Part shown: positions 4,812 to 61,872 of the stretch, piece after piece
Position numbering within the stretch: position 1 is the stretch's first letter
Layout of the letters: every line of letters starts with the position of its first letter
From: a phage
DNA length: 64,000 bases
Strand: one strand, 5' to 3'
Sequence record: PV467749.1
Made by a program: the position numbers and the translations under genes
The notes under the pieces: model-generated
The model's database searches: none
The model's input: the letters and a program-made list of their open reading frames with translations, nothing else
What the model was told of the DNA's origin: nothing

Positions 4812-5005
4812 AGTCTACCTTTTATGTCCCTTCGTAATTCTTGTAAGTATAGTTCGATATACTTTTCTTGATAGTTAGTTCCTATGAAAAGTTTCATAAC
4901 CAATTCACGCTTATATGCAATACCACGGATATGTGACATATGTAGGATATATGCCATGTTGGATATGAGTGTGTGGTTGTGCTCTTCTTGAGTTAAAATA
5001 CGCAT
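4808..5005 (-). CDS. Family A small protein (first gene of array)
   Basis: Track ORF 65 aa; IGTNYQEK; preceded on minus strand by TTGACT-N16-TATATT and GGAG RBS (~5012-5075). Confidence 0.5.
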   Translation of the reverse strand: MRILTQEEHNHTLISNMAYILHMSHIRGIAYKRELVMKLFIGTNYQEKYIELYLQELRRDIKGRL

Positions 5006-5034
5006 AGGGACTCCATTAAAAATAATATCAATCC

Positions 5035-5075
5035 AATAATATACGATTCATATAAAAAGTCAATAACATTTTATA
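5035..5075 (-). promoter_or_regulatory. Candidate sigma70-like promoter driving the family A array
   Basis: Minus strand reads TTGACT-16nt-TATATT then GGAG and the ATG at 5005. Confidence 0.4.
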
Positions 5076-5254
5076 AGTAATACCCCTTTATCGAAGTCGC
5101 TAAGGTTACCCGCCCTTTAGCCCCCTACGCATTTTGCCATAGTCCAATCCCTTTTTATTCATAAAAGTCAAGGGATTACCTATGCATTTTTTTAACGCTG
5201 AAGTTTAAAAATGCCTTGACTTTTTTATGATTCAGTACTAAATCCTTTTACGCA

Positions 5255-5532: not shown

Positions 5533-5934
5533 TTACAGTCCTAAGATAGTGCGTGCTTCGTTACGTTCCGTACACAGCTGCATGATGTGAGCAAGTAAGT
5601 CCTTGCTAATGTATCCGGTGTTCATAGCTTCACGAATAGATACATCATAAGCACCGAACCCAGTGCGAACGATACGCACATCATTCAGGTTAGTATTATA
5701 GATACCGCCGAGATCAACGGCTTCGAATACTACATCAACAGAATATTCATTGTTGCCATCGTGGAAGTTTTCCAGTGCAATAGTATTGGAAACCGCCCAA
5801 CGTTTGCAGTTTCCAATGATGCGGCACTGTTCCGGTTGGATAGTGCCATTACTTACAGCGTACTCCAGTGCATCTTTACCAAAAGTCCGAGCCAGTACTA
5901 AAACGTCAGCGAAGGAAGTGATTGAGAAGGTCAT
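5533..5934 (-). CDS. Hypothetical protein
   Basis: Track ORF trimmed to MTFSITSF behind AAGGAG RBS; upstream track residues translate the promoter/hairpin. Confidence 0.55.
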   Translation of the reverse strand: MTFSITSFADVLVLARTFGKDALEYAVSNGTIQPEQCRIIGNCKRWAVSNTIALENFHDGNNEYSVDVVFEAVDLGGIYNTNLNDVRIVRTGFGAYDVSIREAMNTGYISKDLLAHIMQLCTERNEARTILGL

Positions 5935-6023
5935 GATAAAACTCCTTAATTTAGGAGGGAGAACCATTTCCCCCTCTCTATGTAAAACATTATACATGAA
6001 TCTAAGTACTATGCAAGTACTTT

Positions 6024-6356
6024 TTACATTTTGATACCTGGATTCAGGTAGCGGTGAGATCCATACTCTGGATCGGTTTCGGTCCAGTACTGTAAATCGA
6101 TAGTACCTTTCGCGTTAATCTTGTCTACCAGCTTATTCATCTTAGCGTATACTACATCAGCATCGATGCGTTTAAAGCCAGTGGCTTTAGTGAAGTAGTA
6201 GTGATTTGCTTCACTATCATTCAGGATGTACCGAGAACCGTTTGCCGTTTGTGCGATAATGATTGAGTATTCTACGTTACGGTCGAGGCCGTCGATGAAT
6301 ACAGAGGAAACATTAGTACGGATGAATGCTTTAACGATAGCGATTGAAGTAGTCAT
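6024..6356 (-). CDS. Hypothetical protein
   Basis: Track ORF 110 aa. Confidence 0.5.
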   Translation of the reverse strand: MTTSIAIVKAFIRTNVSSVFIDGLDRNVEYSIIIAQTANGSRYILNDSEANHYYFTKATGFKRIDADVVYAKMNKLVDKINAKGTIDLQYWTETDPEYGSHRYLNPGIKM

Positions 6357-6557
6357 TTTGAATCTCCTAACTTTGTGGGCCGTCGCACCATTGCCGCCCT
6401 ACGAGATACATTATCGCAGTACTGATATACTTTGTCAATACTTTTTTATTAATAGTTTTCACCCCACCAGCAGATAGTTACTCACCGTTATTAACTATAT
6501 ATTTTGGATACACCTATGCACCCTGTGGGCTAGTTTTTGTCTATGCGTATATAATAG

Positions 6558-6590
6558 CAAAGGGACTGACCGGAGTCAATCCCTTTTTTT
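6558..6590 (-). terminator. Rho-independent terminator (UCCG loop) with embedded -35
   Basis: AAAGGGACTGAC-CGGA-GTCAATCCC flanked by A-run and T-run; on minus the stem carries TTGACT followed by TATTAT. Confidence 0.55.
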
Positions 6591-6601
6591 ATTCTTTTTT
6601 G

Positions 6602-6802
6602 TTAGATGATTCTCCAATCATCAACGATCATGGTAAGATACCGAACCAGTGATTCGAGTGATTCGTGTTCTCGATAGTCTGCCGCTCCACCAGCGGTACA
6701 AGTACAGCCGATTAAGCCGTTTTGTAGTTCCTGGATCTTTACGTCGATCTGGTTGGCTTTAGCTTCTTTCAGTACTGCAACCAGGGCGATAGCGATAGAC
6801 AT
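6602..6802 (-). CDS. Hypothetical protein
   Basis: Track ORF 66 aa; upstream promoter/leader hairpin module. Confidence 0.45.
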   Translation of the reverse strand: MSIAIALVAVLKEAKANQIDVKIQELQNGLIGCTCTAGGAADYREHESLESLVRYLTMIVDDWRII

Positions 6803-6892
6803 AATGTTTTACTCCAAACTATTGGCGGGAGAACTATTCCCCCGCTCTATGTAAAACATTATACATTACTGGTTAGTACTGTCAAATAGTTT

Positions 6893-7150
6893 TTATGAAA
6901 TATCTTCGATGTAGTCGGCCCATTTCATTTTTTCAGTACTGTCAATGGCGACCGGATTATTTGGATCAAACCATTCACCATCACCGCAATACATACCCAC
7001 GGCTACGGTTTTATAGCCATCCTGGGCAGTACACCACGACATTGCACGATAGATATGGCCTTTAACTGGTTGCAGTACTGGTAACGTTTTATGGTCTTCT
7101 ACGTAGGCCATAGCTTGTGGATTTACCCGATATTGTGTGAACTGATCCAT
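6893..7150 (-). CDS. Hypothetical protein
   Basis: Track ORF 85 aa. Confidence 0.5.
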   Translation of the reverse strand: MDQFTQYRVNPQAMAYVEDHKTLPVLQPVKGHIYRAMSWCTAQDGYKTVAVGMYCGDGEWFDPNNPVAIDSTEKMKWADYIEDIS

Positions 7151-7226
7151 TATGTTTCCCCTTGTAGTTAGTAAAGTTATTACATCAGTACTATCAAGCT
7201 ATGTCAATAGTACTGAAATAAAACTT

Positions 7227-7451
7227 TTAGATTAGATTATTGAGGCCGTCAATGGTAGACTCACCTTCTTCTTTCTCCCATTGTCGGTAGTACTTCCATG
7301 CTTCATGATAGGTGGCGATTAGTTCATCTTTTTGATCCTGGTTACATGCCAGTACTGAATCACGGTGAGCGGTGTTATAGATAGAATCGAATGATTTCTT
7401 CTCTTCTGCCAGGTTAGCTACTTCCCGCATCAGTTCATCAAAGTTAGCCAT
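7227..7451 (-). CDS. Hypothetical protein
   Basis: Track ORF 74 aa; AAGGAG RBS; promoter TTGCAT-17-TATAAT plus leader hairpin at 7470-7526. Confidence 0.55.
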   Translation of the reverse strand: MANFDELMREVANLAEEKKSFDSIYNTAHRDSVLACNQDQKDELIATYHEAWKYYRQWEKEEGESTIDGLNNLI

Positions 7452-7469
7452 TTTATTACTCCTTTTAGT

Positions 7470-7526
7470 GGGGGAGGATATCTCCCCCTATGCAAAACAT
7501 TATACTTTGTTTTAGTTATTATGCAA
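7470..7526 (-). promoter_or_regulatory. Early-type promoter plus 5' leader hairpin (representative of ~30 copies)
   Basis: Minus strand: TTGCAT-17nt-TATAAT, gttttgcata, hairpin GGGGGAG/CTCCCCC, then AAGGAG RBS. Confidence 0.6.
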
Positions 7527-7782
7527 GTACTTTTTTCATATAAACATTAAATTCTACACCGCCGTAACCTTCCACGATGATATGTTTTGCGTTATCACGT
7601 TTGCACATAGTGAAACCGTTGTTGATGTGTTCTGAATTTTCCAGGGCGACATCACCGATAGCGGCACATACAGCACTAATAACAGTATTCCGCAAAGTAC
7701 TGGTATCATTGGCGGTCATAGTAGTTTGCAGTACTACGTTGTCGTATACGTGTGCATTGATAGTGATTTCGATAGTGTTCAT
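7519..7782 (-). CDS. Hypothetical protein
   Basis: Track ORF trimmed to MNTIEITINA; promoter/leader module at 7801-7862. Confidence 0.5.
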   Translation of the reverse strand: MNTIEITINAHVYDNVVLQTTMTANDTSTLRNTVISAVCAAIGDVALENSEHINNGFTMCKRDNAKHIIVEGYGGVEFNVYMKKVLA

Positions 7783-7800
7783 GTTGTATCTCCTGGACTT

Positions 7801-7862
7801 GAGGGGAAACCATTTCCCCCTCTCGATATAAAACATTATACGTTAATCTAACTACAATGCAA
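7801..7862 (-). promoter_or_regulatory. Early-type promoter plus 5' leader hairpin
   Basis: Minus strand: TTGCAT-16nt-TATAAT then hairpin GAGGGG/CCCCTC; plus-strand signature gatataaaacattatacg. Confidence 0.6.
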
Positions 7863-7869
7863 GTACTTT

Positions 7870-8061
7870 TTAAATTTTATTTCCGATATAGTCCGGCATG
7901 TTCTTTTCAGTCATACGCTTTGCTAATGTCTGCATATGGCTTATAGCGTTCAAGGTGTCTTCCTCCAGGGATGAATCGAGATAATCAGGATCATTCTTCA
8001 CCTTGCAATGATTATGATAGCGTAGTACTGCCAGTACTTTTTTAACTTCTTCAACTGTCAT
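7870..8061 (-). CDS. Hypothetical protein
   Basis: Track ORF 63 aa. Confidence 0.45.
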   Translation of the reverse strand: MTVEEVKKVLAVLRYHNHCKVKNDPDYLDSSLEEDTLNAISHMQTLAKRMTEKNMPDYIGNKI

Positions 8062-8330
8062 AATAAGTACTCCACTTCGTTAGCTTTCAGGTTAGTATCA
8101 ATCATCAATGGTTTTTTGTAGTTCACAAAACGATTAGTTTTTTCGATAGCAAATCCCATATAATCCAGCTTACTAACAGTACATTCATTCTTAAAAACTT
8201 CTTTCGCTGCATCGATGGCTGATTGCATGGATAACCGACCATCTAAATTAATGTTTCCAAATGATCCACCAGCAGAAGTAGGATTACCGTTCATATCTTT
8301 AATGATCATAGTAGCGGAGTAGCTGGACAT
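8058..8330 (-). CDS. Hypothetical protein
   Basis: Track ORF 90 aa; start overlaps stop of 7870..8061 gene. Confidence 0.5.
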   Translation of the reverse strand: MSSYSATMIIKDMNGNPTSAGGSFGNINLDGRLSMQSAIDAAKEVFKNECTVSKLDYMGFAIEKTNRFVNYKKPLMIDTNLKANEVEYLL

Positions 8331-8417
8331 AATTTTGTTTCCTTTTATTGGTGGGGAGAACTATTCTCCCCTTGATGTAAACTATTATACAGTACTGATA
8401 TACTTTGTCAAATACTT

Positions 8418-8825
8418 TTATTCGCCCATATAGATTAGATTATCATCGCCTACATAGGGATCGCAAACGTTGATTTCTTCGCAGTACTTAGTGAATATAT
8501 CATCATAGTGACCGATATCACGATCCCAAAAACCAGTGCCGTGACCTTCGCGAGTAAGAAAGAGATCATGACCTGCATGACTATAAGTATAATCAGGATT
8601 ATGGTGTTTTTGTACTGTTTCCATATCTTCACCATGTACAGCAAGGAAACGTGAACATGCAATCACTGCCGCTTGATGGGCTTGCTCTGATAATTCATAA
8701 TCTTCCAGGTATTCGCCGTTCTCATTGTGTACTGTACTGAATTGCATAGCTTCAATGTAACCAGCGACCATTGCAGCATGATTTTTATCGTTGGCGATGG
8801 ACCGAGCTTGATTAGTAGTAGTCAT
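8418..8825 (-). CDS. Hypothetical protein (His/Asp-rich)
   Basis: Track ORF 135 aa. Confidence 0.5.
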   Translation of the reverse strand: MTTTNQARSIANDKNHAAMVAGYIEAMQFSTVHNENGEYLEDYELSEQAHQAAVIACSRFLAVHGEDMETVQKHHNPDYTYSHAGHDLFLTREGHGTGFWDRDIGHYDDIFTKYCEEINVCDPYVGDDNLIYMGE

Positions 8826-8908
8826 GATTTTATTCCTTTTAGTATCGGGGAGAACTATTCTCCCCTTGATGTAAACTATTATACAGTACTGGTATACTTT
8901 GTCAATAC

Positions 8909-18963: not shown

Positions 18964-18994
18964 ACACAAAAAAGCCCACCGTTTAAGGTGGGCT
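18964..18994 (-). terminator. Rho-independent terminator, 3' of 19016..19498
   Basis: Minus: AGCCCACC-ttaaac-GGTGGGCT followed by TTTTTTGTGTTT. Confidence 0.7.
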
Positions 18995-19015
18995 AGTGAT
19001 TCAGTACTTTAATTG

Positions 19016-19498
19016 TTATGCTTCAACTTTGCGATGAGCTTCGATCCATTCCTCGCGAGTCATACCACTGGAGTTAATCGCGTCCAGTACTACCGCAATA
19101 CAGTTACCACGCACCGGAATCAGATATTCTTCCCCGTTGTCCAGTACTACCGCTACGCGTTCCTGAATCCATTTTTTGGCTTTTACTTCTGGCTTGTCTT
19201 CCCCATACTTAACCGCCAGGGCTTTTTGTGCCATCTCTGTAACTACTTCCAGATCCAATCCAACTACTGCCGCCTGAATACTTTCGATTGTTGCTTGTAG
19301 TTCTGCTTCACGGGCCGCCTTTGCCGCTTCAATTTCTGCCGCTTTATTTGCTTGTAGTTCTTTCGCAGTACTGTACGCGATGTTAAAATTATTGCGTACC
19401 GCTTTCATGGTATCGTTATCCAGTTCAGCCAGGATCTCAGCCGCTACGTTAGTTTCATTTGCTACCAGTGCTTTGATGAATGATTTTACATTAGCCAT
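19016..19498 (-). CDS. Hypothetical protein (Ala/Glu-rich helical N-half)
   Basis: Track ORF trimmed to MANVKSF; terminators flank both ends. Confidence 0.55.
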   Translation of the reverse strand: MANVKSFIKALVANETNVAAEILAELDNDTMKAVRNNFNIAYSTAKELQANKAAEIEAAKAAREAELQATIESIQAAVVGLDLEVVTEMAQKALAVKYGEDKPEVKAKKWIQERVAVVLDNGEEYLIPVRGNCIAVVLDAINSSGMTREEWIEAHRKVEA

Positions 19499-19699
19499 TT
19501 TATAAATCCTCAATTAAAGTTTAGTTTACGTTTATTAGTGTATCAAAGTTTTCTCGACGTGTCCAGTTTTTCGTTCGACTTACTGGCGGTCTACTTAGTG
19601 CTCCCCGTCTTGATGTAATACATTCTACGCTTTTCTGCGGTAATGTCAACTACTTTCTTAAAACTATTTTCAAAGTATCTCAGTACTACGATACTACAA

Positions 19700-19726
19700 A
19701 AACAAAAAAGCCCACCAGGTGGGCTA
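19700..19726 (-). terminator. Rho-independent terminator, 3' of 19732..19962
   Basis: Minus: GCCCAC-ctg-GTGGGC followed by TTTTTTGTTTTT. Confidence 0.65.
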
Positions 19727-19731
19727 TGTAC

Positions 19732-19962
19732 TTAATCAGTGAGTAAAATATTAAACACTTTACCATTTAACGTTATTGGTGCACTGCTACCAGGCTCAAG
19801 ATCCGTTAATATACCTGCAATCGCTTTATCATTGGCGACCTTTCCAGTGTCCAACAGTACTACAGTACTGATAAGATTAACGCTCGTTTCAATATCATAA
19901 TGCACGGCGTTAAGTAGTTGTGTAGTACTGCTTTCGTTAAGTAAAACAATTCGCTTAGTCAT
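19732..19962 (-). CDS. Hypothetical protein
   Basis: Track ORF 76 aa; terminator immediately 3' at 19700-19726. Confidence 0.5.
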   Translation of the reverse strand: MTKRIVLLNESSTTQLLNAVHYDIETSVNLISTVVLLDTGKVANDKAIAGILTDLEPGSSAPITLNGKVFNILLTD

Positions 19963-19983
19963 GATGTTACCCCGTAGTATCTA

Positions 19984-20283
19984 TCAACGGCAATTAATAA
20001 CGCCGGTATGCGTTACTTTCTCAGTATCCATTACAGTGACCGAACCGCGTTTAGTACTGGCATCATAATAAATTGTTGTGCTACCGTTTTCGTCTTCTTC
20101 ATGGAACGGGCCGTTTTTAAATGCTTCCGGCTGGATCTCTAAATCCTTTAATACAATCTCGCCAGTACTTTCATCGGTCATTGCAACAGTGCACTGAATG
20201 AATTTTTCACTACTTACATCTAATGACGCATTAACAGCGAAAGAGGAAACAGATAAAGCCAGGGCGATGATTGTAATTTTCAT
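19984..20283 (-). CDS. Secreted/periplasmic protein candidate
   Basis: Trimmed to MKITIIALALSVSSFAVNA, a signal-peptide-like N-terminus. Confidence 0.5.
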   Translation of the reverse strand: MKITIIALALSVSSFAVNASLDVSSEKFIQCTVAMTDESTGEIVLKDLEIQPEAFKNGPFHEEDENGSTTIYYDASTKRGSVTVMDTEKVTHTGVINCR

Positions 20284-20389
20284 TTGATTATCCTTAGTTA
20301 CCAGGGGAACCGCTCCCCTATGCAAAACATTATACGCGTTTAAAAACTAATTGCAAGTATTTTAATAAAAAGTATTTGAAAAATAATTG

Positions 20390-20418
20390 TTGACAACTGC
20401 ATCCAGTACTGGCATAAT
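20390..20418 (+). promoter_or_regulatory. Plus-strand early-type promoter opposing flanking genes
   Basis: TTGACA-17nt-CATAAT then tactacatcaagacg; downstream CCCACCGGGTGC and a hairpin with U-rich tail at ~20498-20532. Confidence 0.5.
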
Positions 20419-20524
20419 TACTACATCAAGACGAAACAGTCACTAACCCACCGGGTGCCGAGATCCGTCTATTAAATGATTCAGTACTGAAAAAGTAACG
20501 GGGAGTTATTATCTCCCCGCGTTG

Positions 20525-20746
20525 TTATTTTGTAAGGTATAAACAGAAGTCGCCTTTATTTGCTACGCCGCCAGTGTAACGCGATGAATAGTTAGAAACG
20601 TCCTGGACTTCTGCTATTACCAGGGTATCATCATTCAATTCGTCGCAGAAGCAAACGGCTGGATCTTGTACGCCGATTTTGTCGGCATGTTCCCGCATAG
20701 ATTTAACCAGTGCTTCCAGTTGGGAAAGAGTAGTGATATTAGCCAT
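20525..20746 (-). CDS. Hypothetical protein
   Basis: Track ORF trimmed to MANITTLSQ. Confidence 0.5.
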   Translation of the reverse strand: MANITTLSQLEALVKSMREHADKIGVQDPAVCFCDELNDDTLVIAEVQDVSNYSSRYTGGVANKGDFCLYLTK

Positions 20747-20832
20747 TTTATTTTCCTCATTACCAGGGAGAACCATTTCTCCCTTTGATGTAAACCATTA
20801 TACAGTACTGAAAACTAATTGCAAGTACTTTT

Positions 20833-21093
20833 TCAATATTGTTTGTCGTCGTCTTCCTCGATGAATTGACCGACGAAATGATCTACTTTCGCTTTGAGGC
20901 TTTTATAATCTTCTTCTACTTCCTTTAAACGTTCCTGGTAGTATTCCAATGCTTCAAGATACGCCGCCTCAGCAGTTTTTGCACGCATGGCTAAATTCAT
21001 GCCACGCGTTTCATCAAATAGCCAATAACCATCGGTGCACTGGCTAATAGATAATGTCTTGCTTAGTGCTGTATAGCTAATTACTTTACTCAT
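20833..21093 (-). CDS. Hypothetical protein
   Basis: Track ORF 86 aa. Confidence 0.5.
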   Translation of the reverse strand: MSKVISYTALSKTLSISQCTDGYWLFDETRGMNLAMRAKTAEAAYLEALEYYQERLKEVEEDYKSLKAKVDHFVGQFIEEDDDKQY

Positions 21094-21150
21094 TAGATAA
21101 CCCTCAGTAAAGGCGGGAACTATTACCCGCCATTATCTCAGTACTGAATA

Positions 21151-21390
21151 TTACATTCCAACCATTGCAGCACGGATCGCAGTAGTGCTATATTTGAATC
21201 CGTCCGGCGTTGTAGTAGTACCGTTGGCTTTTAATCTGCGGTACATACATTCCGCAGCAATATCTTTAGTTCTACTTTGTGCGATGCAACTTTGTGCAAG
21301 CCGATACAATGACTCACCGTTATTAATCCAAAGGCTTACATTCCAATGAGTTTTGTTTTTGTGTCCGTTGTAAGTTTTAGTACTAGCCAT
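21151..21390 (-). CDS. Hypothetical protein (paralog of 23196..23435)
   Basis: Shares KNKTHWNVSLWINN...PDGFKYSTTAIRAAMVGM. Confidence 0.55.
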   Translation of the reverse strand: MASTKTYNGHKNKTHWNVSLWINNGESLYRLAQSCIAQSRTKDIAAECMYRRLKANGTTTTPDGFKYSTTAIRAAMVGM

Positions 21391-21480
21391 TTTTAAATCC
21401 TCGTTTGAGCGGGGAACCACTCCCCGCCTTGATGTAAAGTATTATACGCTTTTAAACTTAGTTTACAAGTACTTTTTAAA

Positions 21481-22092
21481 TTAATATTCGATTGATTCCA
21501 CTACGCCATCAATAACATTGAATTGATATTCGTTACCCTCAATCAGTGCAGTAATGTTTTCAGTAGTGAATTGATCCTCATATGCATTCTCTAAATCACG
21601 GTACAACTTACGAGATAATTCACGGATCGCATCAGTCAGTAAGTTTTCCAGGTCATCAGCAAGTGCCGCTTGTTTTACAGTTAAATCAGTGTAGCGAGTA
21701 TCAACGCAACCGCTTACCGTGTTTTCGTGTGCGTAGCGAGAGTGTGAACGTTCTACACTCATTGCCAAATCATCTTCATTCAACAAGTGACGGATTGAAC
21801 GATATTTCGTTAACGCCTTAACCTTGCGTAAAAACTTCTCAGCGTCAACGTGGTTAGTACTGATTGATGCACCGTCACCTTGCGACCAAAAACCACTGTA
21901 TTGCAATTCAGCTTCATCTATGCCGTATTCTGGTAGTACTGTTTCTTTATAGTACTCGATAACGCCCTCAGCAAAGAAATTATCCTCACATGAACGCTCA
22001 CGATCCCGAACCAGTTCGATAGCCGCCGTTTTTTGTTCTGCGTTCAGTTCAGAAAAAGCCATAACAAAAGTAGTAGTAGTGATAGTTTTCAT
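21481..22092 (-). CDS. Hypothetical acidic protein
   Basis: Track ORF 203 aa; contains GFWSQGDGASI; family not recognised. Confidence 0.55.
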   Translation of the reverse strand: MKTITTTTFVMAFSELNAEQKTAAIELVRDRERSCEDNFFAEGVIEYYKETVLPEYGIDEAELQYSGFWSQGDGASISTNHVDAEKFLRKVKALTKYRSIRHLLNEDDLAMSVERSHSRYAHENTVSGCVDTRYTDLTVKQAALADDLENLLTDAIRELSRKLYRDLENAYEDQFTTENITALIEGNEYQFNVIDGVVESIEY

Positions 22093-22316
22093 TTTGTAAC
22101 CCTCATTCAGTAGTTGATGTAAGTATTATACGCTTTTAAAAACATTTGTCAAACTATTTTATCAGGGGAGTTTTTCGTGTGCCTTACTCCTGGGCTACTT
22201 AACGGGAAGTTACTTATTTCGTTCCCCGTCCTGATGTAAAACATTATACGCTTATTGAGATAGTTTGCAAGTACTTTTTAAAAATAGTTTTCAGTACTGA
22301 ATAGTAAAAAAAAGTA

Positions 22317-22345
22317 TTGACAGCATTATCAAGTACTGGCATAAT
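22317..22345 (+). promoter_or_regulatory. Plus-strand early-type promoter
   Basis: TTGACA-17nt-CATAAT; transcript would contain CCCACCGGGTGC and downstream GCACCCTATGGG inverted partner. Confidence 0.5.
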
Positions 22346-22522
22346 ATACCCCATGACAACAGCTAACCCACCGGGTGCACAATTGTAACTATACTAAACT
22401 AATTTTTCTATAGATACACTCCCGCACCCTATGGGCTACGGCTTATCTGCCAATGAATACATTATGCCAGTACTGACAAAATAAGTCAATACCGGCAATT
22501 GTAAATTTTTCAAAAAATATGA

Positions 22523-22753
22523 TTATACTGCAATCGCGTCCAGGCTGTAATAATAATAAGTGCCGTATTGGTGTACTTTATTACCTTTTATTTCAGTACT
22601 GAATGAATCCGAACGATTTGCATATGATGTTAATTTAAAGTACTTTGATTTGCTGATACGTTGCCATACACCACAGATCCGCTGTAAGTAAGTAGTTTTA
22701 TTCGTGGTCGTATCTTTTACGGTTTTAACTTCAGTCATATACATATTAGTCAT
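22523..22753 (-). CDS. Hypothetical protein
   Basis: Track ORF 76 aa. Confidence 0.45.
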   Translation of the reverse strand: MTNMYMTEVKTVKDTTTNKTTYLQRICGVWQRISKSKYFKLTSYANRSDSFSTEIKGNKVHQYGTYYYYSLDAIAV

Positions 22754-22840
22754 TTTTATTACTCCAGGTTATAGGCGGGAAGAGTTCCCGCTCTCGATGT
22801 AAAACATTATACGCCTTTAAACATAGTTTGCAAGTACTTT

Positions 22841-23107
22841 TTATTCAAGTACTGCAATCTTTTTAGTACGGTACACGGTCACGCGGTTGCCCTTTCGGTC
22901 GAGCTTTATTTCTACCACTCGACGCGATACACTATCGGGACTTTTTAAGGCCGCTAACCAGTACTGTAATGATCTGGCGGTACTACGCTTTACAATGGCC
23001 CAACGTTTACCACGTTCCGATTGTACGCCCATATCTTTAAACGTTGCCCCGTCCTGGCGTGCGGCGATCCGAGCTTGTTCACGCGTCGCAAAATACTTAA
23101 TATTCAT
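22841..23107 (-). CDS. Hypothetical protein (paralog of 10859..11263)
   Basis: Trimmed to MNIKYFATREQARIAARQDGATFKDMG. Confidence 0.55.
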   Translation of the reverse strand: MNIKYFATREQARIAARQDGATFKDMGVQSERGKRWAIVKRSTARSLQYWLAALKSPDSVSRRVVEIKLDRKGNRVTVYRTKKIAVLE

Positions 23108-23195
23108 GCTGTTGCCCTTATCGTTGGTGTATGAATAAAACACTATTATAAAGTACTATCCCCGTGCAATAGTACTTTAAATAAATTCTATTCTA

Positions 23196-23435
23196 TTACA
23201 TTCCAACCATTGCCGCACGGATCGCAGTAGTGCTATATTTGAATCCGTCCGGTGTTTTATCTTGTCCAGTCTGTTCTAAAAATAACATCATATGACGGGC
23301 CGCATCATTGCGATTAGTGCTATCGTTAATAAAGTCCTGGGCCAACCGGTATAATGATTCATCGTTATTAATCCAAAGGCTTACATTCCAATGAGTTTTG
23401 TTTTTGTGACCTAAGAACATTTTTGATTTAGCCAT
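23196..23435 (-). CDS. Hypothetical protein (paralog of 21151..21390)
   Basis: Trimmed to MAKSKMFLGHKNKTHWN. Confidence 0.55.
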   Translation of the reverse strand: MAKSKMFLGHKNKTHWNVSLWINNDESLYRLAQDFINDSTNRNDAARHMMLFLEQTGQDKTPDGFKYSTTAIRAAMVGM

Positions 23436-23528
23436 TTTTTTAATCCTCTTATATAGTGGGGAACTATTCCCCACCTGATGTAAAACATTATACGCTTTTA
23501 AACTTAGTTTGCAAGTACTTTATTAAAC

Positions 23529-23891
23529 TTATTTGTAAATTTTGCCACTTTCTACCCATACCAGGAAACGAGGCATATTATCCCATGCATCTTGCTTTAA
23601 GTTTAAGCCGTGCAATTCCTCAGTTGTTGCCATGCCTGGGACTGGTTTACTATACACCGAGAATTTTTCGCCCATGTACTGATAAACCATCGTCAAATCA
23701 CTGGCGATCATCTTATGGATCATCGCATCAAGCATCACGGTCGCGGCGTATTGTTCACGCTTAAGCGGCAGCATTTTAATCAGTTCGCGGTATGCGTCAA
23801 TGTGAGTTTTAACCGTTGCCGCCGGAAGATCTTTCATCTCGTCGCGGAAGTTAACCAGGTTAGCAATAATTTTGGTGATTTGAGTCGCCAT
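23529..23891 (-). CDS. Hypothetical protein
   Basis: Track ORF trimmed to MATQITKIIA behind RBS. Confidence 0.5.
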   Translation of the reverse strand: MATQITKIIANLVNFRDEMKDLPAATVKTHIDAYRELIKMLPLKREQYAATVMLDAMIHKMIASDLTMVYQYMGEKFSVYSKPVPGMATTEELHGLNLKQDAWDNMPRFLVWVESGKIYK

Positions 23892-24199
23892 CGTTTTAAT
23901 CTCTCTTAAAAGTGAGTTAGGAGCGTTTCCCCCGTCTCGATGTAAAACATTATACGCCTTTAAACATAGTTTACAAGTACTTTCTACAAATACTTTTAAA
24001 ATAGTTTTCTTTCTATATAGGGAAACTATCATTCAGTACTGAATCAACCAAATCACTACTACACCCCGTAAAACGGCCTCAATCGCATTCTAACGCATTA
24101 TTACACCTAAGCTATACATTTGCACCATTCTAATCATTCCAGTGCGTTACGGGCCGTTTAAACGCGTTAAATTATTTTCAATTATTTTGTTTTTAGGTA

Positions 24200-24227: not shown

Positions 24228-24415
24228 TACTACATAGACGCGAGAAAGCGGATACCCCAGGGGGTGCGGAATTGTGCCCAAAATTCAAGATATAAAAAAA
24301 GGATACACTCCCGCACCCTAGCAGGTAAACGCACTTTCTCAGTACTGAAATATAGTACCATAGTCCGGCCCAGGATAGCAAGCAAATTAATTAAAACTTT
24401 TTTGCTTCCAGGGTA

Positions 24416-24443: not shown

Positions 24444-24540
24444 AGTTCCATCAAGTCGAGAAAGACTCAAGCCCACCGGGTGCATAGTTACGCCCAAAAT
24501 TCAGTACTGAAAAAATTTTTAAAAATATCCGTCCAGGTCG

Positions 24541-54142: not shown

Positions 54143-54180
54143 GTATTCATCCTCTCGTCTTGATGAAATAATTATAGCAA

Positions 54181-54210
54181 AAAGGGCTGACCGAAGTCAA
54201 CCCTTTTTTC
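54181..54210 (-). terminator. Terminator-promoter module between HNH and NTPase genes
   Basis: Minus: GGGTTGACT-TCGG-TCAGCCC, T-run, then TATAAT 18 nt after the TTGACT inside the stem. Confidence 0.6.
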
Positions 54211-54610
54211 TTTCAATCAAACATAGTCTACCAGAATGTACCATGCGATGGTGATTAGAACAAAGAATCATACACTTTCGAATTTCATCTTTGATAGCAT
54301 CTCGACTTTTACTGAACATAGAACTTGGTGTATGTTCTTTGGTATTAGGGTCAAGATGGTGAAAGTCTAAACATTCTGGATACTTCATCATACAAACACT
54401 ACAACCATAAAATGATTTAACTCTGGTCATGAAATCTTTATTTTTTCTTTTGATTTCTTCAAGTTTTTTGACATCAGTTTTTTTATTTCTGGTTTTCTTA
54501 CTGGTAATATTACTACAACCTTTGCATGTATTTCTATGTTTCCCAGTATCACTTCTTATACCAAATTCACTAATGTCTTTTTCAATATTACACGTGATAC
54601 ACTTCTTCAT
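54197..54610 (-). CDS. HNH endonuclease
   Basis: N-terminal Cys pairs (CITC, CKGC); C-terminal CLDFHHLDP...ILCSNHHRMVH; stop codon lies inside the terminator stem. Confidence 0.7.
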   Translation of the reverse strand: MKKCITCNIEKDISEFGIRSDTGKHRNTCKGCSNITSKKTRNKKTDVKKLEEIKRKNKDFMTRVKSFYGCSVCMMKYPECLDFHHLDPNTKEHTPSSMFSKSRDAIKDEIRKCMILCSNHHRMVHSGRLCLIERKKG

Positions 54611-58766: not shown

Positions 58767-58802
58767 GTTTGCCTCCAGTAGTTGATGAAATGATTATAGC
58801 AA

Positions 58803-58832
58803 AAAGGGCCGACCGAAGTCAACCCTTTTCTT
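58803..58832 (-). terminator. Terminator-promoter module
   Basis: Minus: GGGTTGACT-TCGG-TCGGCCC, T-run, TATAAT at correct spacing, GGAGG RBS. Confidence 0.6.
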
Positions 58833-59445: not shown

Positions 59446-59486
59446 TGCATTACCTCTTATAAAACCCTCTACAATATTTACAAAAA

Positions 59487-59512
59487 AAGGTTGACCGAAG
59501 TCAACCTTTTAA
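59487..59512 (-). terminator. Rho-independent terminator (UUCG tetraloop), 3' of 59517..61028
   Basis: Perfect GGTTGAC-CGAA-GTCAACC; minus transcript has stem then a U7 run. Confidence 0.7.
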
Positions 59513-59516
59513 ATGT

Positions 59517-61028
59517 TTATTTTTTATCCTTTCCAACACCACGGTCGTACTCTTTGAATGAGTTATCAAGTGTAGTTAGTGCATACTCATATGCTTCTGG
59601 TGATTCAATGTCAACATCATCTGCACCATTTACTAAATCAGCCCAAGCCTTTTGAAGTTTACGAGCATTGTTACCAACATTATCTTTAATCCAACTAATA
59701 TTTTTGTTGATACTTTTACTATCAGCACCTGCTTTTTTACCAATCTCGGATATCCACATCATTAACTTTTGAAGTTCATGAATTGATTTATCAGTCATTT
59801 CAAGATGTTCTTCTTCCATACCGTCAGAATCAGATGAACCAACGTCAATTCCATGTTTAGCTAATAGTTTACCAAGTTCAAAGAATGCAGCTTCAGCAGG
59901 GAAGTCATAACCTTTGTCTTTGTAGTTATTCCATGCACTATCAAACTCGTCAACAAAACGGTTAGCATAATCTGGATTTTTAACTAATGCTTTATATACT
60001 GCCATTGCATGTTCAAAACCTTCTTTATCTGACCCAAACTCTTCCATCTCAGGACGATGAATATATCCATCCATATCAACGGTATCAGGTAGATCTTCTT
60101 GTTCAGGTTCTACATCTTTCTGTTCAACTGCACCTTCTTCATCTGCACGCTTTAGATAACCATCTGGTGTTACCTTCTCACCATGTTCTGCTTCATACTT
60201 TTTCATAGTGTTGAATGCAGCATCCATAGCTGTTACGAAGCGACTTTTCTCACCTTGTACATAAGATTTAAGTGCACTGTTAACTGCATCTGATACGAGC
60301 TTAACCTTATCGTCTTTACCTTCTAAACGGTTTTCAAGTTTAGCCAGTACATTCTTGATTTGCTGGGCATTAGCACGGTCTGCTTTACCAATACTATCAA
60401 AAGTTTTAAGAATACCATCAAGACTTGCTTCACCCTGTTCAGGTTCTTTCGAATCTTCTTTGTGTGTACCTTCAAGTGCACGCATGATAGTACTGAATAC
60501 TTCAGTGGGTTCAGTACTCTTATTACCTTTCATTGCATCAAGTACAGCTTGTGCTTTACCTTTGAGTTCTTCTTTAGGAACTGCCTGTAGTGCTTTGACA
60601 ATACCCTGAATCAACTGTGGTTTGTTAGCAAAGATCTTACCTAAGTTATCAGATAACTCTTTAACAGGGTTAGCTGCTTTAGGAGCTTCTGGTTTTGGTT
60701 CTTCTTTAGGAACTGCTTGTTCTTTCTCAGCACGTTCCATATCAGCAAGGCGTTGTTTCTGTGTTGCGTTAAGAAGACCTAATGAGTTAACATAACGTAG
60801 CTTTTCTAGCTCAGTCATGTTCTCAGTACTCTTAACTTCACCTGCTTCTGCGTTTGCCTTACCAGCTAAACCTGTCCCTTGATTACGTGAACCACGTGAC
60901 CCCTGTCCTGCTTGGTAGCTATTTTGACGACGATTGCGTTCACTCCATTTATCAGAGTGACCTGCCATGTTCCCGCCATTTTTATCAGTAAATTGACCTG
61001 GCATTTGATTTCTCTCCATAGATTTCAT
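59517..61028 (-). CDS. Large hydrophilic Lys/Glu-rich protein (start uncertain)
   Basis: Track ORF 503 aa; probable start at third ATG (MPGQ) behind GGAGAG; strong terminator immediately 3'. Confidence 0.6.
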   Translation of the reverse strand: MKSMERNQMPGQFTDKNGGNMAGHSDKWSERNRRQNSYQAGQGSRGSRNQGTGLAGKANAEAGEVKSTENMTELEKLRYVNSLGLLNATQKQRLADMERAEKEQAVPKEEPKPEAPKAANPVKELSDNLGKIFANKPQLIQGIVKALQAVPKEELKGKAQAVLDAMKGNKSTEPTEVFSTIMRALEGTHKEDSKEPEQGEASLDGILKTFDSIGKADRANAQQIKNVLAKLENRLEGKDDKVKLVSDAVNSALKSYVQGEKSRFVTAMDAAFNTMKKYEAEHGEKVTPDGYLKRADEEGAVEQKDVEPEQEDLPDTVDMDGYIHRPEMEEFGSDKEGFEHAMAVYKALVKNPDYANRFVDEFDSAWNNYKDKGYDFPAEAAFFELGKLLAKHGIDVGSSDSDGMEEEHLEMTDKSIHELQKLMMWISEIGKKAGADSKSINKNISWIKDNVGNNARKLQKAWADLVNGADDVDIESPEAYEYALTTLDNSFKEYDRGVGKDKK

Positions 61029-61067
61029 ATTGTTTATTCTCTATGACTATATTTATAGTATAAAGAA

Positions 61068-61092
61068 AAGGTTGACCGAAGTCAACCCTATT
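61068..61092 (-). terminator. Rho-independent terminator (UUCG tetraloop)
   Basis: GGTTGACCGAAGTCAACC flanked by A/T runs. Confidence 0.6.
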
Positions 61093-61665: not shown

Positions 61666-61845
61666 GATATCCCTTATTTGGTTTGTTCAACACTAGGTGT
61701 ATTGATATAGGTGTCAATTGAATAACATACTGTACCCACTACAACAGCAGCGATTAGGGCAGTGATGATGAATTTAGTACCTTGCATAATTTAATACCTC
61801 ACGTTGTTTGTATTTTGTATCACTTGATGAAAATATTATACGACA

Positions 61846-61872
61846 AAGGGCTGACTGAAGTCAACCCCTTTT
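61846..61872 (-). terminator. Rho-independent terminator
   Basis: GGGCTGACTGAAGTCAACCCC then T-run; overlaps stop of 61861..62259. Confidence 0.5.

What the first reader, a model, noticed from the sequence alone, without database searches (positions are those of the whole stretch)
54181..54210. Terminator hairpins with a UUCG/UCCG tetraloop and a -35 box built into the stem
Nine copies of the hairpin GGTTGAC-CGAA-GTCAACC (variants GGGACTGAC-CGGA-GTCAATCCC) follow minus-strand genes. On the minus transcript the loop is UUCG or UCCG closed by C-G, a very stable tetraloop class. The stem contains TTGAC(T), and several copies have TATAAT or TATTAT 17-18 nt downstream (54181, 58803, 6558, 9317, 12581), so the terminator of one gene doubles as the -35 element of the next promoter. 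A-runs and T-runs on both sides suggest bidirectional termination.
Basis: seen in the sequence. Interest (0 to 1): 0.7.

Follow-up and report, generated by a model that had tools for sequence, protein, structure and literature searches.

The report
Combined terminator–promoter cassettes in jumbo phage
Nine short repeats in the early-gene regions of this E. coli jumbo phage each appear to pack a transcription stop hairpin and the next gene's start signal into about 45 bases; this is a known phage design (PeSL cassettes of T4-like phages), seen here in a phage group where no paper I could search describes it.

Summary
Nine minus-strand hairpins sit at the stated places. All nine carry TTGAC in the 5' arm. 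The loops are UUCG (5), UCCG (3) and UUCA (1).

Each hairpin follows a stop codon and is followed by a T-run. Eight of nine have a TATAAT-like box 17-18 nt after TTGACT. Six of nine have an extended -10 (TGn). Seven have a CAT start site 7 nt after the -10.

The window is from an Asteriusvirus, the PBECO4/121Q group of RaK2-like jumbo phages.

The best reading is a composite of an intrinsic terminator and a sigma-70-type promoter, probably early. That is a PeSL ("promoter-early stem-loop") cassette, described in T4-like phages in 2010 and 2014. One described PeSL subclass has the stem-loop overlapping the -35.

Three results support this:
- G·U wobbles make the hairpin 1-9.5 kcal/mol stronger on the gene-strand RNA.
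- The 5' arm never varies, while the 3' arm and the outer stem do.
- Depositors of related genomes annotated the same hairpins as terminators.

As with PeSLs, the cassettes are junctions where genes re-assort between related phages.

The bidirectional-termination idea is weak, and the UNCG loop is not conserved in relatives. No transcript ends have been mapped. Verdict: a new member of a known kind, of modest interest.

A side observation may matter more. The palindrome AGTACT is 12-fold over-represented in the window.

The parts
54164..54208 (-). Cassette at the finding. A-run and hairpin 54208-54179 (GGGUUGAC-UUCG-GUCAGCCC), -35 TTGACT 54200-54195, 18-nt spacer containing the U-run, TGC + TATAAT 54176-54171, predicted +1 at 54164. 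SD and ATG of the 257-aa ORF at 54142.
   Evidence: dG is -19.8 kcal/mol on the minus strand and -14.1 on the plus strand. The stop codon of the HNH endonuclease ORF 54197-54610 lies inside the 5' arm.
58786..58830 (-). Cassette: hairpin 58830-58801 (GGGUUGAC-UUCG-GUCGGCCC, two wobble pairs), -35 58822-58817, TGC + TATAAT 58798-58793 (spacer 18), predicted +1 about 58786. ATG of the 137-aa ORF at 58766.
59477..59510 (-). Hairpin 59510-59485 (GGUUGAC-UUCG-GUCAACC, a perfect palindrome) with a long U-run but only a weak -10 (TGTAAA/TAAATA). Probably a terminator-only or degraded 'half' cassette. ATG of the 83-aa ORF at 59445.
   Evidence: The G17 orthologue has the same weak box.
61050..61089 (-). 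Cassette: hairpin 61089-61068, -35 61085-61080, TATACT 61062-61057 (spacer 17), overlapping a T4-late-like TATAAATA. Upstream of the 503-aa ORF 59517-61028.
   Evidence: PHROG 20398 'virion structural protein'.
61828..61870 (-). Cassette: hairpin 61870-61845 (loop UUCA), -35 61864-61859, TATAAT 61840-61835 (spacer 18, no TGn), predicted +1 at 61828. Followed by the 37-aa ORF 61674-61787.
16252..16294 (-). Cassette: hairpin 16294-16267 (GUGGUUGAC-UUCG-GUCAGCCAU), -35 16287-16282, TGC + TATTAT 16264-16259 (spacer 17), predicted +1 at 16252. Followed by a conserved leader and a second promoter about 95 nt downstream.
12566..12608 (-). Cassette: hairpin 12608-12581 (GGGAUUGAC-UCCG-GUCAGUCCC), -35 12601-12596, TGC + TATTAT 12578-12573 (spacer 17), predicted +1 at 12566.
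9301..9343 (-). Cassette: hairpin 9343-9316 (loop UCCG), -35 9336-9331, TGC + TATTAT 9313-9308 (spacer 17), predicted +1 at 9301. It follows a 213-aa ORF with only a weak, sub-threshold Pfam kinase match.
6544..6586 (-). Cassette: hairpin 6586-6559 (loop UCCG), -35 6579-6574, TGC + TATTAT 6556-6551 (spacer 17), predicted +1 at 6544.
   Evidence: A TH47 alignment ends at 6599, 13 nt from the hairpin.
14569..14643 (-). Comparison case. An ordinary terminator hairpin (GCCCACUGGU-UAAC-GCUGGUGGGC + U-run, 14643-14618) is followed by a separate TTGACA promoter, so the two elements do not overlap in this arrangement in the same genome.

Best explanation
Each copy is a compact regulatory cassette of about 45 bp, read on the minus strand, that does two jobs.

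First job: RNA. When RNA polymerase arrives from the upstream gene it transcribes A-run, GGG, UUGAC, a 4-nt loop, GUCAR, CCC and a U-run. This folds into a stable hairpin followed by U's, the form of an intrinsic terminator or attenuator. Transcripts would end inside what is the promoter spacer on the DNA.

Second job: DNA. The same bases are a promoter for host sigma-70 RNA polymerase:
- The 5' arm plus the first loop base is the -35 hexamer TTGACT.
- The rest of the loop, the 3' arm and the T-run fill the 17-18 bp spacer.
- The T-run ends in TG(C), an extended -10, followed by TATAAT or TATTAT.
- Transcription would start at the A of a CAT 7 nt further on.
- The upstream A-run sits where the proximal UP-element subsite lies.

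The new transcript starts downstream of the hairpin, so it is not terminated by its own cassette. The result is an insulated transcription unit for each small gene or gene group.

Because about 55 bp are nearly identical at many sites, the cassettes also serve as homologous-recombination junctions where genes are deleted, inserted or swapped between related phages.

Shown here: the sequence anatomy, the strand asymmetry, the conservation pattern and the re-assortment of flanks. Inferred: actual termination, actual initiation, early timing and the UP-element role.
For: Anatomy and position
- All nine copies lie just after minus-strand stop codons. In the 54-62 kb cluster, four of five are 34-39 nt before the next SD and ATG. 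The fifth (61845) is 57 nt before a 37-aa ORF.
- Hairpin dG is -12.7 to -19.8 kcal/mol, with z-scores of -3.7 to -6.6.

Strand asymmetry
- 7 of 9 copies have U·G wobbles that pair only on the gene-strand RNA. Minus versus plus dG is, for example, -15.9 vs -6.4 and -18.0 vs -10.1. This argues for an RNA hairpin rather than a DNA palindrome.

Constraint on the 5' arm
- I ran a motif-free census of hairpin-plus-T-run sites in the window and eight relatives' loci. It found 15 distinct variants of this family, one of which is the plus-strand reading of the perfect palindrome at 59485.
- All keep TTGAC in the 5' arm, and every gene-strand variant has T as the first loop base.
- The 3' arm varies (GTCAA, GTCAG, GTCGG).
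- A T-to-C change in the 5' arm would repair the wobble, but it never occurs.
- The outer stem shows compensatory changes: 16 double changes in columns 5-8 paired with 23-26.

Promoter features
- Across 63 distinct instances from all loci, 52 match the -10 consensus in at least 5 of 6 positions and 56 have a 17-18 nt spacer.
- T-15 occurs in 0.94 and G-14 in 0.71 of instances. An A preceded by a pyrimidine occurs 7 nt after the -10 in 0.86.
- The same -10 followed by a CAT-type start-region signature occurs in about 30 hairpin-less promoters in the window.
- Three of the five best sigma-70 matches in 52-64 kb are these modules, and all five are on the gene strand.

Natural control
- Chance occurrences of the 14-mer TTGACTTCGGTCAG in IMG/VR that lack an outer stem have no -10 box. 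Nearly all of the roughly 24 with an outer stem of at least 4 bp have a T-run and a -10-like box at 16-18 nt; a few outliers do not.

Independent annotation
- Depositors of G17, UE-S1 and GAP32 annotated these hairpins as rho-independent terminators; the G17 and GAP32 notes name ARNold.
- 8 of 9 annotated terminators in G17 42-60 kb are of this type.

Precedent
- PeSL cassettes of RB49/phi1 were shown by lacZ fusions to be strong promoters and effective terminators. One subclass has the stem-loop overlapping the -35 (PMC2839356).
- The nt-1/KVP40 stem consensus is A3-4G3-loop-C3T3-4 (PMC4122927). A KVP40-like Vibrio phage carries an identical hairpin.

Recombination junctions
- In alignment A2 the core is identical while the flanks re-assort. 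SP27_a combines the upstream flank of G17 module 2 with the downstream flank of G17 module 1.
- The window's single module stands where G17 has three modules and 2.7 kb, including denV.
- The segment between modules 61845 and 61068 is replaced, with boundaries 21 and 5 nt from the hairpins.
Against: - There are no transcript 5' or 3' ends, no in vitro data and no expression timing for this phage or any Asteriusvirus in the library I could search.
- The U-tract is short and interrupted in four copies (UUUGCUAUU), so termination may be partial.
- With TGn + TATAAT in six copies, the promoter might work without a -35.
- The spacer is 18 nt rather than the optimal 17 in three copies.
- One copy (59485) lacks a convincing -10. 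Another (61068) precedes a gene classed as a virion structural protein and overlaps a late-type TATAAATA, so not every copy need be an early promoter.
- The copies are paralogous and probably homogenised by recombination, so counts of conserved features are not independent.
- Indel boundaries in gene-dense phage DNA fall in intergenic regions anyway. Other promoter cassettes in the window are boundaries too.
Confidence: 0.75

Rival explanations
1. The hairpins are terminators only. They end upstream transcripts, and the TATAAT-like boxes are either AT-rich background or belong to extended -10 promoters that do not use the TTGAC. On this reading the -35 in the stem is a coincidence of a successful hairpin family.
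For: - The sequence is AT-rich (35% GC), so promoter-like hexamer pairs are as frequent as in shuffles overall: 52 found against 52.5 expected.
- TGn is present in 6 of 9 copies, and extended -10 promoters can dispense with a -35.
- Copy 59485 has no good -10.
Against: - TTGAC is invariant in the 5' arm while the 3' arm and outer stem vary. The stabilising T-to-C change never appears.
- The first loop base is T in every gene-strand variant found in the motif-free census.
- The -10 sits at 17-18 nt in 56 of 63 instances across several phage lineages.
- Other terminator families in the same genome (GCCCAC..., GCCAGTAC...) have no TTGAC.
Confidence: 0.1
2. The inverted repeat works as double-stranded DNA. 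It would be an operator for a dimeric phage or host regulator that overlaps the -35 and switches these promoters off or on. It would not be an RNA terminator.
For: - GTTGAC-N4-GTCAAC is a near-perfect palindrome in two copies (59485, 61068).
- It sits exactly on a promoter.
Against: - 7 of 9 copies break the DNA palindrome with exactly those changes that keep RNA pairing, A to G giving U·G.
- The outer stem co-varies in pairing, not in sequence.
- The loop sequence varies freely.
- A T-run always follows, and the position is always just after a stop codon.
- Depositors of related genomes annotated these hairpins as rho-independent terminators, and the G17 and GAP32 notes name ARNold.
Confidence: 0.04
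3. The hairpin is mainly an RNA 3'-end stabiliser or processing site. It would protect upstream mRNAs from 3' exonucleases after processing, without stopping RNA polymerase efficiently.
For: - The U-tracts are short and interrupted in four copies.
- UNCG-type tetraloop hairpins are very stable, and stable stem-loops can block exonucleases (my own knowledge).
Against: - The hairpin-plus-U-run geometry is that of intrinsic terminators.
- The tested PeSL stem-loop reduced downstream lacZ about as much as rrnB T1 (PMC2839356).
- The two roles are not exclusive.
Confidence: 0.07
4. The hairpins are bidirectional terminators. The A-run and T-run would let the same hairpin stop transcription coming from either direction.
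For: - A-runs of 3-7 lie upstream and T-runs of 3-7 downstream.
- The plus-strand RNA still folds, at -6.4 to -14.1 kcal/mol.
- The simple scan lists 59485 and 61068 on the plus strand too.
Against: - No plus-strand genes face these sites.
- The plus-strand hairpin is weakened by C·A mismatches in 7 of 9 copies.
- At one convergent gene junction in the window (48943-48968) a different, perfectly symmetric hairpin is used.
- The A-run position fits an UP element equally well.
Confidence: 0.15

Closest known systems
PeSL (promoter-early stem-loop) cassettes of T4-like phages RB49/phi1 (Arbiol et al. 2010, PMC2839356)
   Same: - An intergenic composite of a strong sigma-70-like promoter and a stem-loop terminator.
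- An AT-rich stretch upstream of the -35.
- G-T pairs in the stems.
- An SD and start codon at the 3' end.
- Many copies clustered among small genes of unknown function.
- One described subclass has the stem-loop overlapping the -35.
- The cassettes sit at insertion, deletion and replacement junctions between close relatives.
   Different: - The host phage is a roughly 350-kb Asteriusvirus, not a T4-like phage.
- Here the stem is one fixed solution (TTGAC, 4-nt loop, GTCAR, clamped by G-runs and C-runs). RB49 has polyG/polyC stems, placed mostly between -35 and -10 or over the -10.
- Activities and mini-circles were measured in RB49/phi1 but not here.
PeSLs of Vibrio phages nt-1/KVP40 (Comeau et al. 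2014, PMC4122927)
   Same: - The stem frame is A3-4 G3 - loop - C3 T3-4.
- KVP40-like phages carry an identical AAAAGGGTTGACTTCGGTCAGCCCTTTTT followed by TATAAA and a similar copy (L048).
   Different: - The paper places the nt-1 stem-loops just upstream of the promoter, with a -35 consensus of TTGYVH.
- The loci I read show generic AAAAAGGG-[variable]-CCCTTTTT terminators, with the TTGAC version as a minority case.
- In the Asteriusvirus 52-64 kb region the TTGAC version is the main terminator type.
Intrinsic (rho-independent) terminators with a cUUCGg tetraloop
   Same: - A GC-clamped stem of 7-9 bp.
- A 4-nt UNCG loop closed by C-G in 8 of 9 copies.
- A U-run after the stem, just after stop codons.
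   Different: - The stem sequence is constrained by a second, DNA-level function.
- The tetraloop is not conserved among relatives.
- Several U-tracts are short.
Morons of lambdoid phages (promoter-gene-terminator units)
   Same: Single genes bring their own promoter and terminator.
   Different: Morons have separate, unrelated promoters and terminators, and no conserved repeated cassette that could drive homologous exchange (discussed in PMC2839356).

Membership tests
PeSL composite promoter/terminator cassette | A sigma-70-like promoter (-35, about 17 bp, -10) and a stable stem-loop within one short conserved intergenic motif | tested here: met
   TTGACT in 9 of 9 copies. A -10 matching at least 5 of 6 at 17-18 nt in 8 of 9. 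Hairpin z-scores of -3.7 to -6.6. Similarity among copies is limited to about 55 bp.
PeSL composite promoter/terminator cassette | [quoted passage not shown] | tested here: met
   An A-run lies directly upstream of the GGG. Stop codons lie 2-20 nt upstream or inside the 5' arm.
PeSL composite promoter/terminator cassette | Shine-Dalgarno and start codon of the next gene at the 3' end of the motif | tested here: inconclusive
   Met for four copies in 54-62 kb, where the ATG lies 34-39 nt after the hairpin. 61845 has a 37-aa ORF 57 nt after the hairpin. The four copies at 6.5-16.3 kb are instead followed by a conserved leader and a second promoter.
PeSL composite promoter/terminator cassette | Many copies, clustered in variable regions rich in small genes of unknown function | tested here: met
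   There are two clusters, at 6.5-16.3 kb and 54.2-61.9 kb, among 37-257-aa ORFs that mostly have no family match, plus one 503-aa ORF with a PHROG match. By BLAST of the 54179 module, relatives have 3-9 similar places per genome, most 5-9.
PeSL composite promoter/terminator cassette | Located at insertion, deletion or replacement junctions between closely related phages, with the cassette shared by both flanks | tested here: met
   Six of nine modules have an alignment end within 25 nt in the relatives' loci compared. Flanks re-assort around an identical core.
PeSL composite promoter/terminator cassette | Measured promoter and terminator activity; mini-circle formation between neighbouring cassettes | not testable with these tools
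   This needs reporter fusions, in vitro transcription and inverse PCR.
Intrinsic terminator | A GC-rich stem-loop directly followed by a U-rich tract, downstream of a coding region, on the transcribed strand | tested here: met
   Depositors annotated the orthologous hairpins in G17, UE-S1 and GAP32 as rho-independent terminators, and the G17 and GAP32 notes name ARNold. The U-tract is only UUU + GCUAUU in four copies.
cUNCGg tetraloop hairpin | A UNCG loop closed by a C-G pair, conserved across homologues | tested here: not met
   The loop is present in 8 of 9 window copies but is not conserved. Loops UUCA, UAAG, UUUA, UUUG, UUAG, UUGG, GAAA and AUAA occur in orthologues and relatives.
Bidirectional intrinsic terminator | A symmetric hairpin flanked by an A-tract and a U-tract, placed between convergent genes | tested here: not met
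   The tracts are present, but there are no convergent genes at any of the nine sites. In 7 of 9 copies the hairpin is asymmetric, with C·A mismatches on the plus RNA.
Sigma-70 promoter with extended -10 and UP element | TGn immediately upstream of the -10; A-tract at about -38 to -46; purine start 7 nt after the -10 | tested here: inconclusive
   TGC is present in 6 of 9 copies, and G-14 in 0.71 of 63 instances. A start-site A occurs in 0.86. The A-run position fits the proximal UP subsite consensus as I recall it, but the A-run could equally serve the hairpin.

The most novel reading that the evidence does not exclude
The overlap may be more than compaction. Because termination would release RNA polymerase inside the promoter it has just crossed, the cassette could hand the enzyme on for local re-initiation. 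Upstream transcription would then feed the next unit instead of interfering with it.

A second possibility is that the near-identical module in unrelated phage lineages reflects movement of the cassette itself rather than repeated invention. The lineages are Asteriusvirus, RaK2, GAP32, KVP40-like Vibrio phages, Aeromonas phage 65, 150-kb Certrevirus-like phages and the Gram-positive Brochothrix phage A9.

My data do not exclude either reading. However, the shared similarity is confined to positions that function alone would fix, and the BLAST matches do not extend beyond the query segment itself (query positions 9-63).
Probability: 0.1. Interest if true: 0.6.

Novelty: new member of a known kind. 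Interest (0 to 1): 0.3.

Why it matters
- If confirmed, the result extends PeSL-type cassettes from T4-like phages to the RaK2/Asteriusvirus jumbo phages. Their genome papers list promoters and terminators separately or not at all.
- It gives a simple rule for annotating transcription units in these roughly 350-kb genomes.
- It offers a mechanism for the gene-by-gene mosaicism seen between Asteriusvirus isolates.
- The 45-bp module is a candidate natural stop-and-restart insulator part for synthetic biology.
- The TTGAC / 4-nt loop / GTCAR solution recurs in distant phages, including one infecting a Gram-positive host. That suggests it is close to the shortest way to overlap a -35 with a terminator.

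Tried and rejected
- Rfam (gathering thresholds) and ARAGORN found nothing in the window, so the repeats are not a known RNA family or tRNA-like.
- The generic promoter scan shows no overall excess of promoter-like sites (52 against 52.5). Only the top-scoring sites are informative.
- The IMG/VR scan for the 14-mer returned mostly chance hits in GC-rich coding DNA. I used these as a control rather than as homologues.
- The DNA-operator reading is rejected because of the wobble asymmetry.
- I considered that the repeats are homing sites of the adjacent HNH endonuclease. I dropped this because only one of the nine copies has such a neighbour.
- I considered that the window is phage TH47, which has a 100% match to the 66-nt module. 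Other regions are only 92.7% identical, so the window is a different mosaic isolate.
- The inner-stem invariance in alignment A3 is imposed by my search pattern and is not evidence. I rely on the motif-free census instead.
- I searched the held literature for PeSLs or transcript mapping in Asteriusvirus or RaK2-like phages and found nothing.
Full report
**What the window is**

A 4-kb stretch around the finding matches complete genomes of Escherichia jumbo phages of the genus Asteriusvirus: EC.P1, WPEC3, fEgEco12, G17, 121Q, PBECO4 and SP27. Identity is 89-99%, with patchy coverage. No single record matches throughout. TH47 is identical over the 66-nt module but only 92.7% identical over 5-18 kb. 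The window therefore comes from a mosaic relative.

By colinearity with fEgEco12, window positions of about 5.1 to about 25.5 kb correspond to that phage's 20,993-bp direct terminal repeat (PMC13070987; mapping). This mapping is an inference.

**The observation**

The sequence at 54181-54210 is as described. A hairpin scan with no motif imposed, plus two pattern searches, find nine copies, all read on the minus strand. Chance expectation is 0.01-0.28 matches.

- Eight loops are UUCG or UCCG closed by C-G, and one is UUCA.
- Every copy has TTGAC as the inner 5' arm and T as the first loop base, giving TTGACT.
- Folding energies of the minus-strand RNA are -12.7 to -19.8 kcal/mol, with z-scores of -3.7 to -6.6.

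**Position**

- Each hairpin begins 2-20 nt after the stop codon of a minus-strand ORF. In two cases it contains the stop codon.
- In the 54-62 kb cluster, four of five copies have the next SD and ATG 34-39 nt after the hairpin. After 61845 there is a 37-aa ORF 57 nt downstream.
- The four copies at 6.5-16.3 kb share about 100 further bases: a conserved leader and a second promoter.
- Similarity among all nine copies is limited to about 55 bp, running from the A-run to a CAT after the -10.

**Promoter features**

- The distance from TTGACT to the best -10 is 17 nt in five copies and 18 nt in three.
- The boxes are TATAAT (3), TATTAT (4) and TATACT (1). Copy 59485 has only a weak box.
- Six copies have TGC directly before the box, which is an extended -10.
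- Seven have CAT with its A 7 nt after the box.
- 8 of 9 modules, against 15 of 113 other TTGAC sites, have a match of at least 5 of 6 at 17-18 nt. The copies are not independent, so this p-value is overstated.
- The same signature of a -10 followed by 5-6 nt and a CAT-type start region (CATCAAG, CATCGAG and variants) marks about 30 hairpin-less promoters in 5-25 kb. The modules therefore belong to the phage's general family of sigma-70-like promoters.
- In the generic scan the total number of promoter-like sites equals chance. However, the five best sites in 52-64 kb are all on the gene strand, and three are modules.

**RNA or DNA?**

In 7 of 9 copies the first T of TTGAC, or the first two, faces G in the 3' arm. 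This gives U·G on the minus RNA but C·A on the plus RNA. The core hairpin is 0.1-5.8 kcal/mol more stable on the gene strand, and the flanked construct 1.5-9.5 kcal/mol more stable. A DNA operator would be expected to keep the palindrome. An RNA hairpin on the gene strand explains the pattern.

**Sequence constraint on the 5' arm**

I took a motif-free census of hairpin-plus-T-run sites in the window and in eight relatives' loci that had been fetched by homology. It gave 15 distinct variants of this family, one of which is the plus-strand reading of the perfect palindrome at 59485.

- Gene-strand loops are UUCG, UCCG, UUCA, UAAG, UACG, UUUA and UUUG.
- 3' arms are GTCAA, GTCAG and GTCGG.
- The 5' arm is always TTGAC and, in the gene-strand variants, is always followed by T.
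- The change that would turn the wobble into a C-G pair never occurs.
- Outer stem pairs do show compensatory changes, such as GG/CC, GGG/CCC, GGGA/TCCC and GTGG/CCAT. There are 16 double changes in alignment A3.
- The inner stem of A3 is fixed by my search pattern, so it is not evidence.

This is what a -35 hexamer embedded in a hairpin predicts. The other terminator families in the same genome lack TTGAC. These are GCCCAC...GTGGGC, GGCGGGA...TCCCGCC and GCCAGTAC...GTACTGGC.

**Wider distribution**

The 66-nt module finds 619 places in 175 phage records:
- Asteriusvirus
- RaK2 and K64-1
- GAP32
- Salmonella 7t3
- Erwinia and Yersinia jumbo phages
- KVP40-like Vibrio phages
- Aeromonas phages 65 and CC2
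- phages of about 150 kb such as CB7, CR8 and CR9
- the hairpin alone in Brochothrix phage A9

Vibrio phage D482 carries AAAAGGGTTGACTTCGGTCAGCCCTTTTT-CA-TATAAA between its DNA ligase gene and the next gene.

An IMG/VR scan for the 14-mer core gave a useful control. Copies without an outer stem, mostly in GC-rich coding DNA, have no -10. Nearly all of the roughly 24 distinct copies with an outer stem of at least 4 bp have a T-run and a -10-like box at 16-18 nt, with a few outliers.

Across 63 distinct instances the -10 positions are T 1.00, A 0.90, T 0.97, A/T, A 0.86 and T 0.90. T-15 is 0.94 and G-14 is 0.71. A pyrimidine-A start lies 7 nt downstream in 0.86. Choosing the best of four spacers inflates these values slightly.

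The similarity between lineages does not extend beyond the module (query positions 9-63). It is therefore compatible with repeated invention of the shortest workable overlap: -35 consensus, a stable tetraloop whose closing C-G is supplied by TTGAC, and the complementary arm.

**Independent annotation**

The depositors of G17, UE-S1 and GAP32 annotated the orthologous or related hairpins as rho-independent terminators; the G17 and GAP32 notes name ARNold. TTGAC-type hairpins followed by TATAAT-like boxes account for:
- 8 of 9 annotated terminators in G17 42-60 kb
- 4 of 11 in G17 342-366 kb
- 2 of 3 in UE-S1
- 1 of 2 in the GAP32 locus

None of these records annotates the promoter.

**What is known**

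Arbiol et al. 2010 (PMC2839356) described PeSLs in RB49/phi1. These are intergenic cassettes combining a near-consensus sigma-70 promoter with a stem-loop. There are five subclasses according to where the stem-loop lies, including overlapping the -35.
- A stem-loop reduced downstream lacZ about as much as rrnB T1.
- The promoters were so strong that clones acquired -35 or -10 mutations.
- Recombination between cassettes deletes or inserts genes and yields mini-circles.

Comeau et al. 2014 (PMC4122927) extended this to T4/PST and KVP40/nt-1, with the nt-1 stem consensus A3-4G3-loop-C3T3-4.

The KVP40-like loci I read show that frame with variable inner stems, and the TTGAC version as a special case.

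In the held literature, papers on RaK2-like phages either list RpoD-like promoters and terminators separately or do not discuss them:
- CBB: 18 promoters with an UP-like element concentrated among small early genes, and 74 terminators
- RaK2, UE-S1, fEgEco12 and Sharanji: no discussion

No paper in the library mentions PeSLs for this group. No transcript-end mapping for Asteriusvirus turned up.

**Recombination junctions**

Comparison with G17, 121Q, UE-S1, EC.P1 and SP27 shows three things.
- The window's single module at 54179 aligns to two G17 modules, 2.7 kb apart. That 2.7 kb contains a third module, denV and four other genes, and is absent from the window.
- The 730 bp between modules 61845 and 61068 is replaced by 135 bp in G17 and 121Q. 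The boundaries lie 21 and 5 nt from the hairpins.
- EC.P1 has an extra gene inserted exactly at the edge of module 61068.

In alignment A2 the core from AAAGGG to TTTCATC is identical, or differs by 1 nt, in seven modules, while the flanks re-assort.
- SP27_a has the upstream flank of G17 module 2 and the downstream flank of G17 module 1.
- The window has EC.P1's upstream flank (an HNH endonuclease gene, PHROG 2255), the denV-type leader, and then a coding sequence like G17_00091.

Six of the nine modules have an alignment end within 25 nt in the relatives' loci compared.

Two caveats apply. Indel boundaries tend to be intergenic in any case. The other promoter cassettes in 5-21 kb are boundaries as well. 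The specific point is that homology from both sides overlaps within the module.

**Judgement**

The reading of a terminator whose stem is the next promoter's -35 is the best-supported explanation (confidence 0.75). It is inferred from anatomy, conservation and precedent, not from transcript data.

Two refinements follow.
- The hairpin is oriented for the gene strand, so the bidirectional claim is weak.
- The UNCG loop is frequent but dispensable.

This is a PeSL-type cassette. It is a new member of a known kind in a phage group where it does not seem to have been described.

Noticed in passing
window 5234-64000 (none in 1-5233): The palindrome AGTACT occurs 274 times against 22.4 ± 4.9 expected. 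Density is about 1 per 140 bp from 5.2 to 30.5 kb and about 3 per kb elsewhere, with none in the first 5.2 kb.

189 sites are in coding sequence, in all three frames, and 85 are intergenic. The weak flanking consensus is CAGTACTG.

The 8-20-fold excess is also present in loci of G17, 121Q, fEgEco12, RaK2, GAP32 and other RaK2-like phages. It is absent from the KVP40-like, Aeromonas 65 and Brochothrix A9 loci.

I found no paper on it. This may be more unusual than the finding itself.
   Followed up: partly
window about 5900-24000, minus strand (e.g. 16922-16941, 18435-18454, 13257-13276, 9153-9172): About 25 further promoter cassettes of two types: AAAAAGTACTTGCA...GCG-TATAAT-GTTTTACATCGAG, and GTATTGACA...CAGTACTG-TATAAT-AGTTTACATCAAG.

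Each is followed at once by a 5'-leader hairpin (GGGGAGAA-N4-TTCTCCCC, with stems that vary in a paired way), then an SD and ATG. Almost every small gene has its own cassette. These cassettes also coincide with alignment breakpoints between relatives.
   Followed up: partly
window 30570-50825, plus strand: An array of about 17 tandem paralogous genes of 358-449 aa; two I read begin MLPFVRMFDYGN.

Nine of the intergenic gaps carry a second kind of composite cassette: a GCCAGTAC-loop-GTACTGGC hairpin, a T-run, (A)TTAAATATAGTATAATGAATAAAGGAGG and the start codon. There is no -35, and the motif looks late-like.

SP27 labels five upstream plus-strand genes, probable homologues that I did not align, 'putative DNA condensation protein'.
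   Followed up: partly
window 6506-6530, 9258-9282, 12528-12552, 16209-16233, about 14520-14545 (minus strand); about 24254-24280 and about 24470-24500 (plus strand): A conserved leader motif, (A/G)CCCAnnGGGTGC(R)nnn(n)GTAyCy, lies about 18-45 nt after the predicted start sites of seven transcripts, including the four modules at 6.5-16.3 kb. It forms a weak hairpin with no compensatory changes. There is no Rfam match.
   Followed up: partly
window 54197-54610, minus strand: A 137-aa HNH endonuclease ORF (PHROG 2255, E = 9e-32) lies directly upstream of module 54179, with its stop codon inside the hairpin. The roughly 405-bp gene is absent from G17, 121Q, SP27 and UE-S1. It is present in EC.P1 and probably in WPEC3 and fEgEco12, whose matches here carry an HNH endonuclease annotation. 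It looks like a mobile gene that borrows the cassette's terminator.
   Followed up: partly
window about 5100 to about 25500: By colinearity with fEgEco12, this stretch corresponds to the roughly 21-kb direct terminal repeat. The inner boundary falls in the gap just before the first AGTACT site. The strand switch with divergent promoters is at 24.0-24.5 kb.

The four UCCG/UUCG modules at 6.5-16.3 kb would then lie in the terminal repeat. The window looks like an assembly with the repeat collapsed.
   Followed up: partly
window 61040-61065, minus strand: The -10 region of module 61068 (TATACT) overlaps TATAAATA, the T4 late-promoter consensus. The gene downstream (503 aa) matches PHROG 20398, 'virion structural protein'. 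This suggests early termination followed by late re-start at this copy.
   Followed up: no
window 1-5200, minus strand: By colinearity with relatives (about 25 genes of about 70 aa in G17, and g057-g075 in fEgEco12), this stretch holds a run of tiny, tightly packed or overlapping genes. It has none of the promoter or terminator cassettes seen elsewhere and no AGTACT, and it lies just outside the inferred terminal repeat.
   Followed up: no
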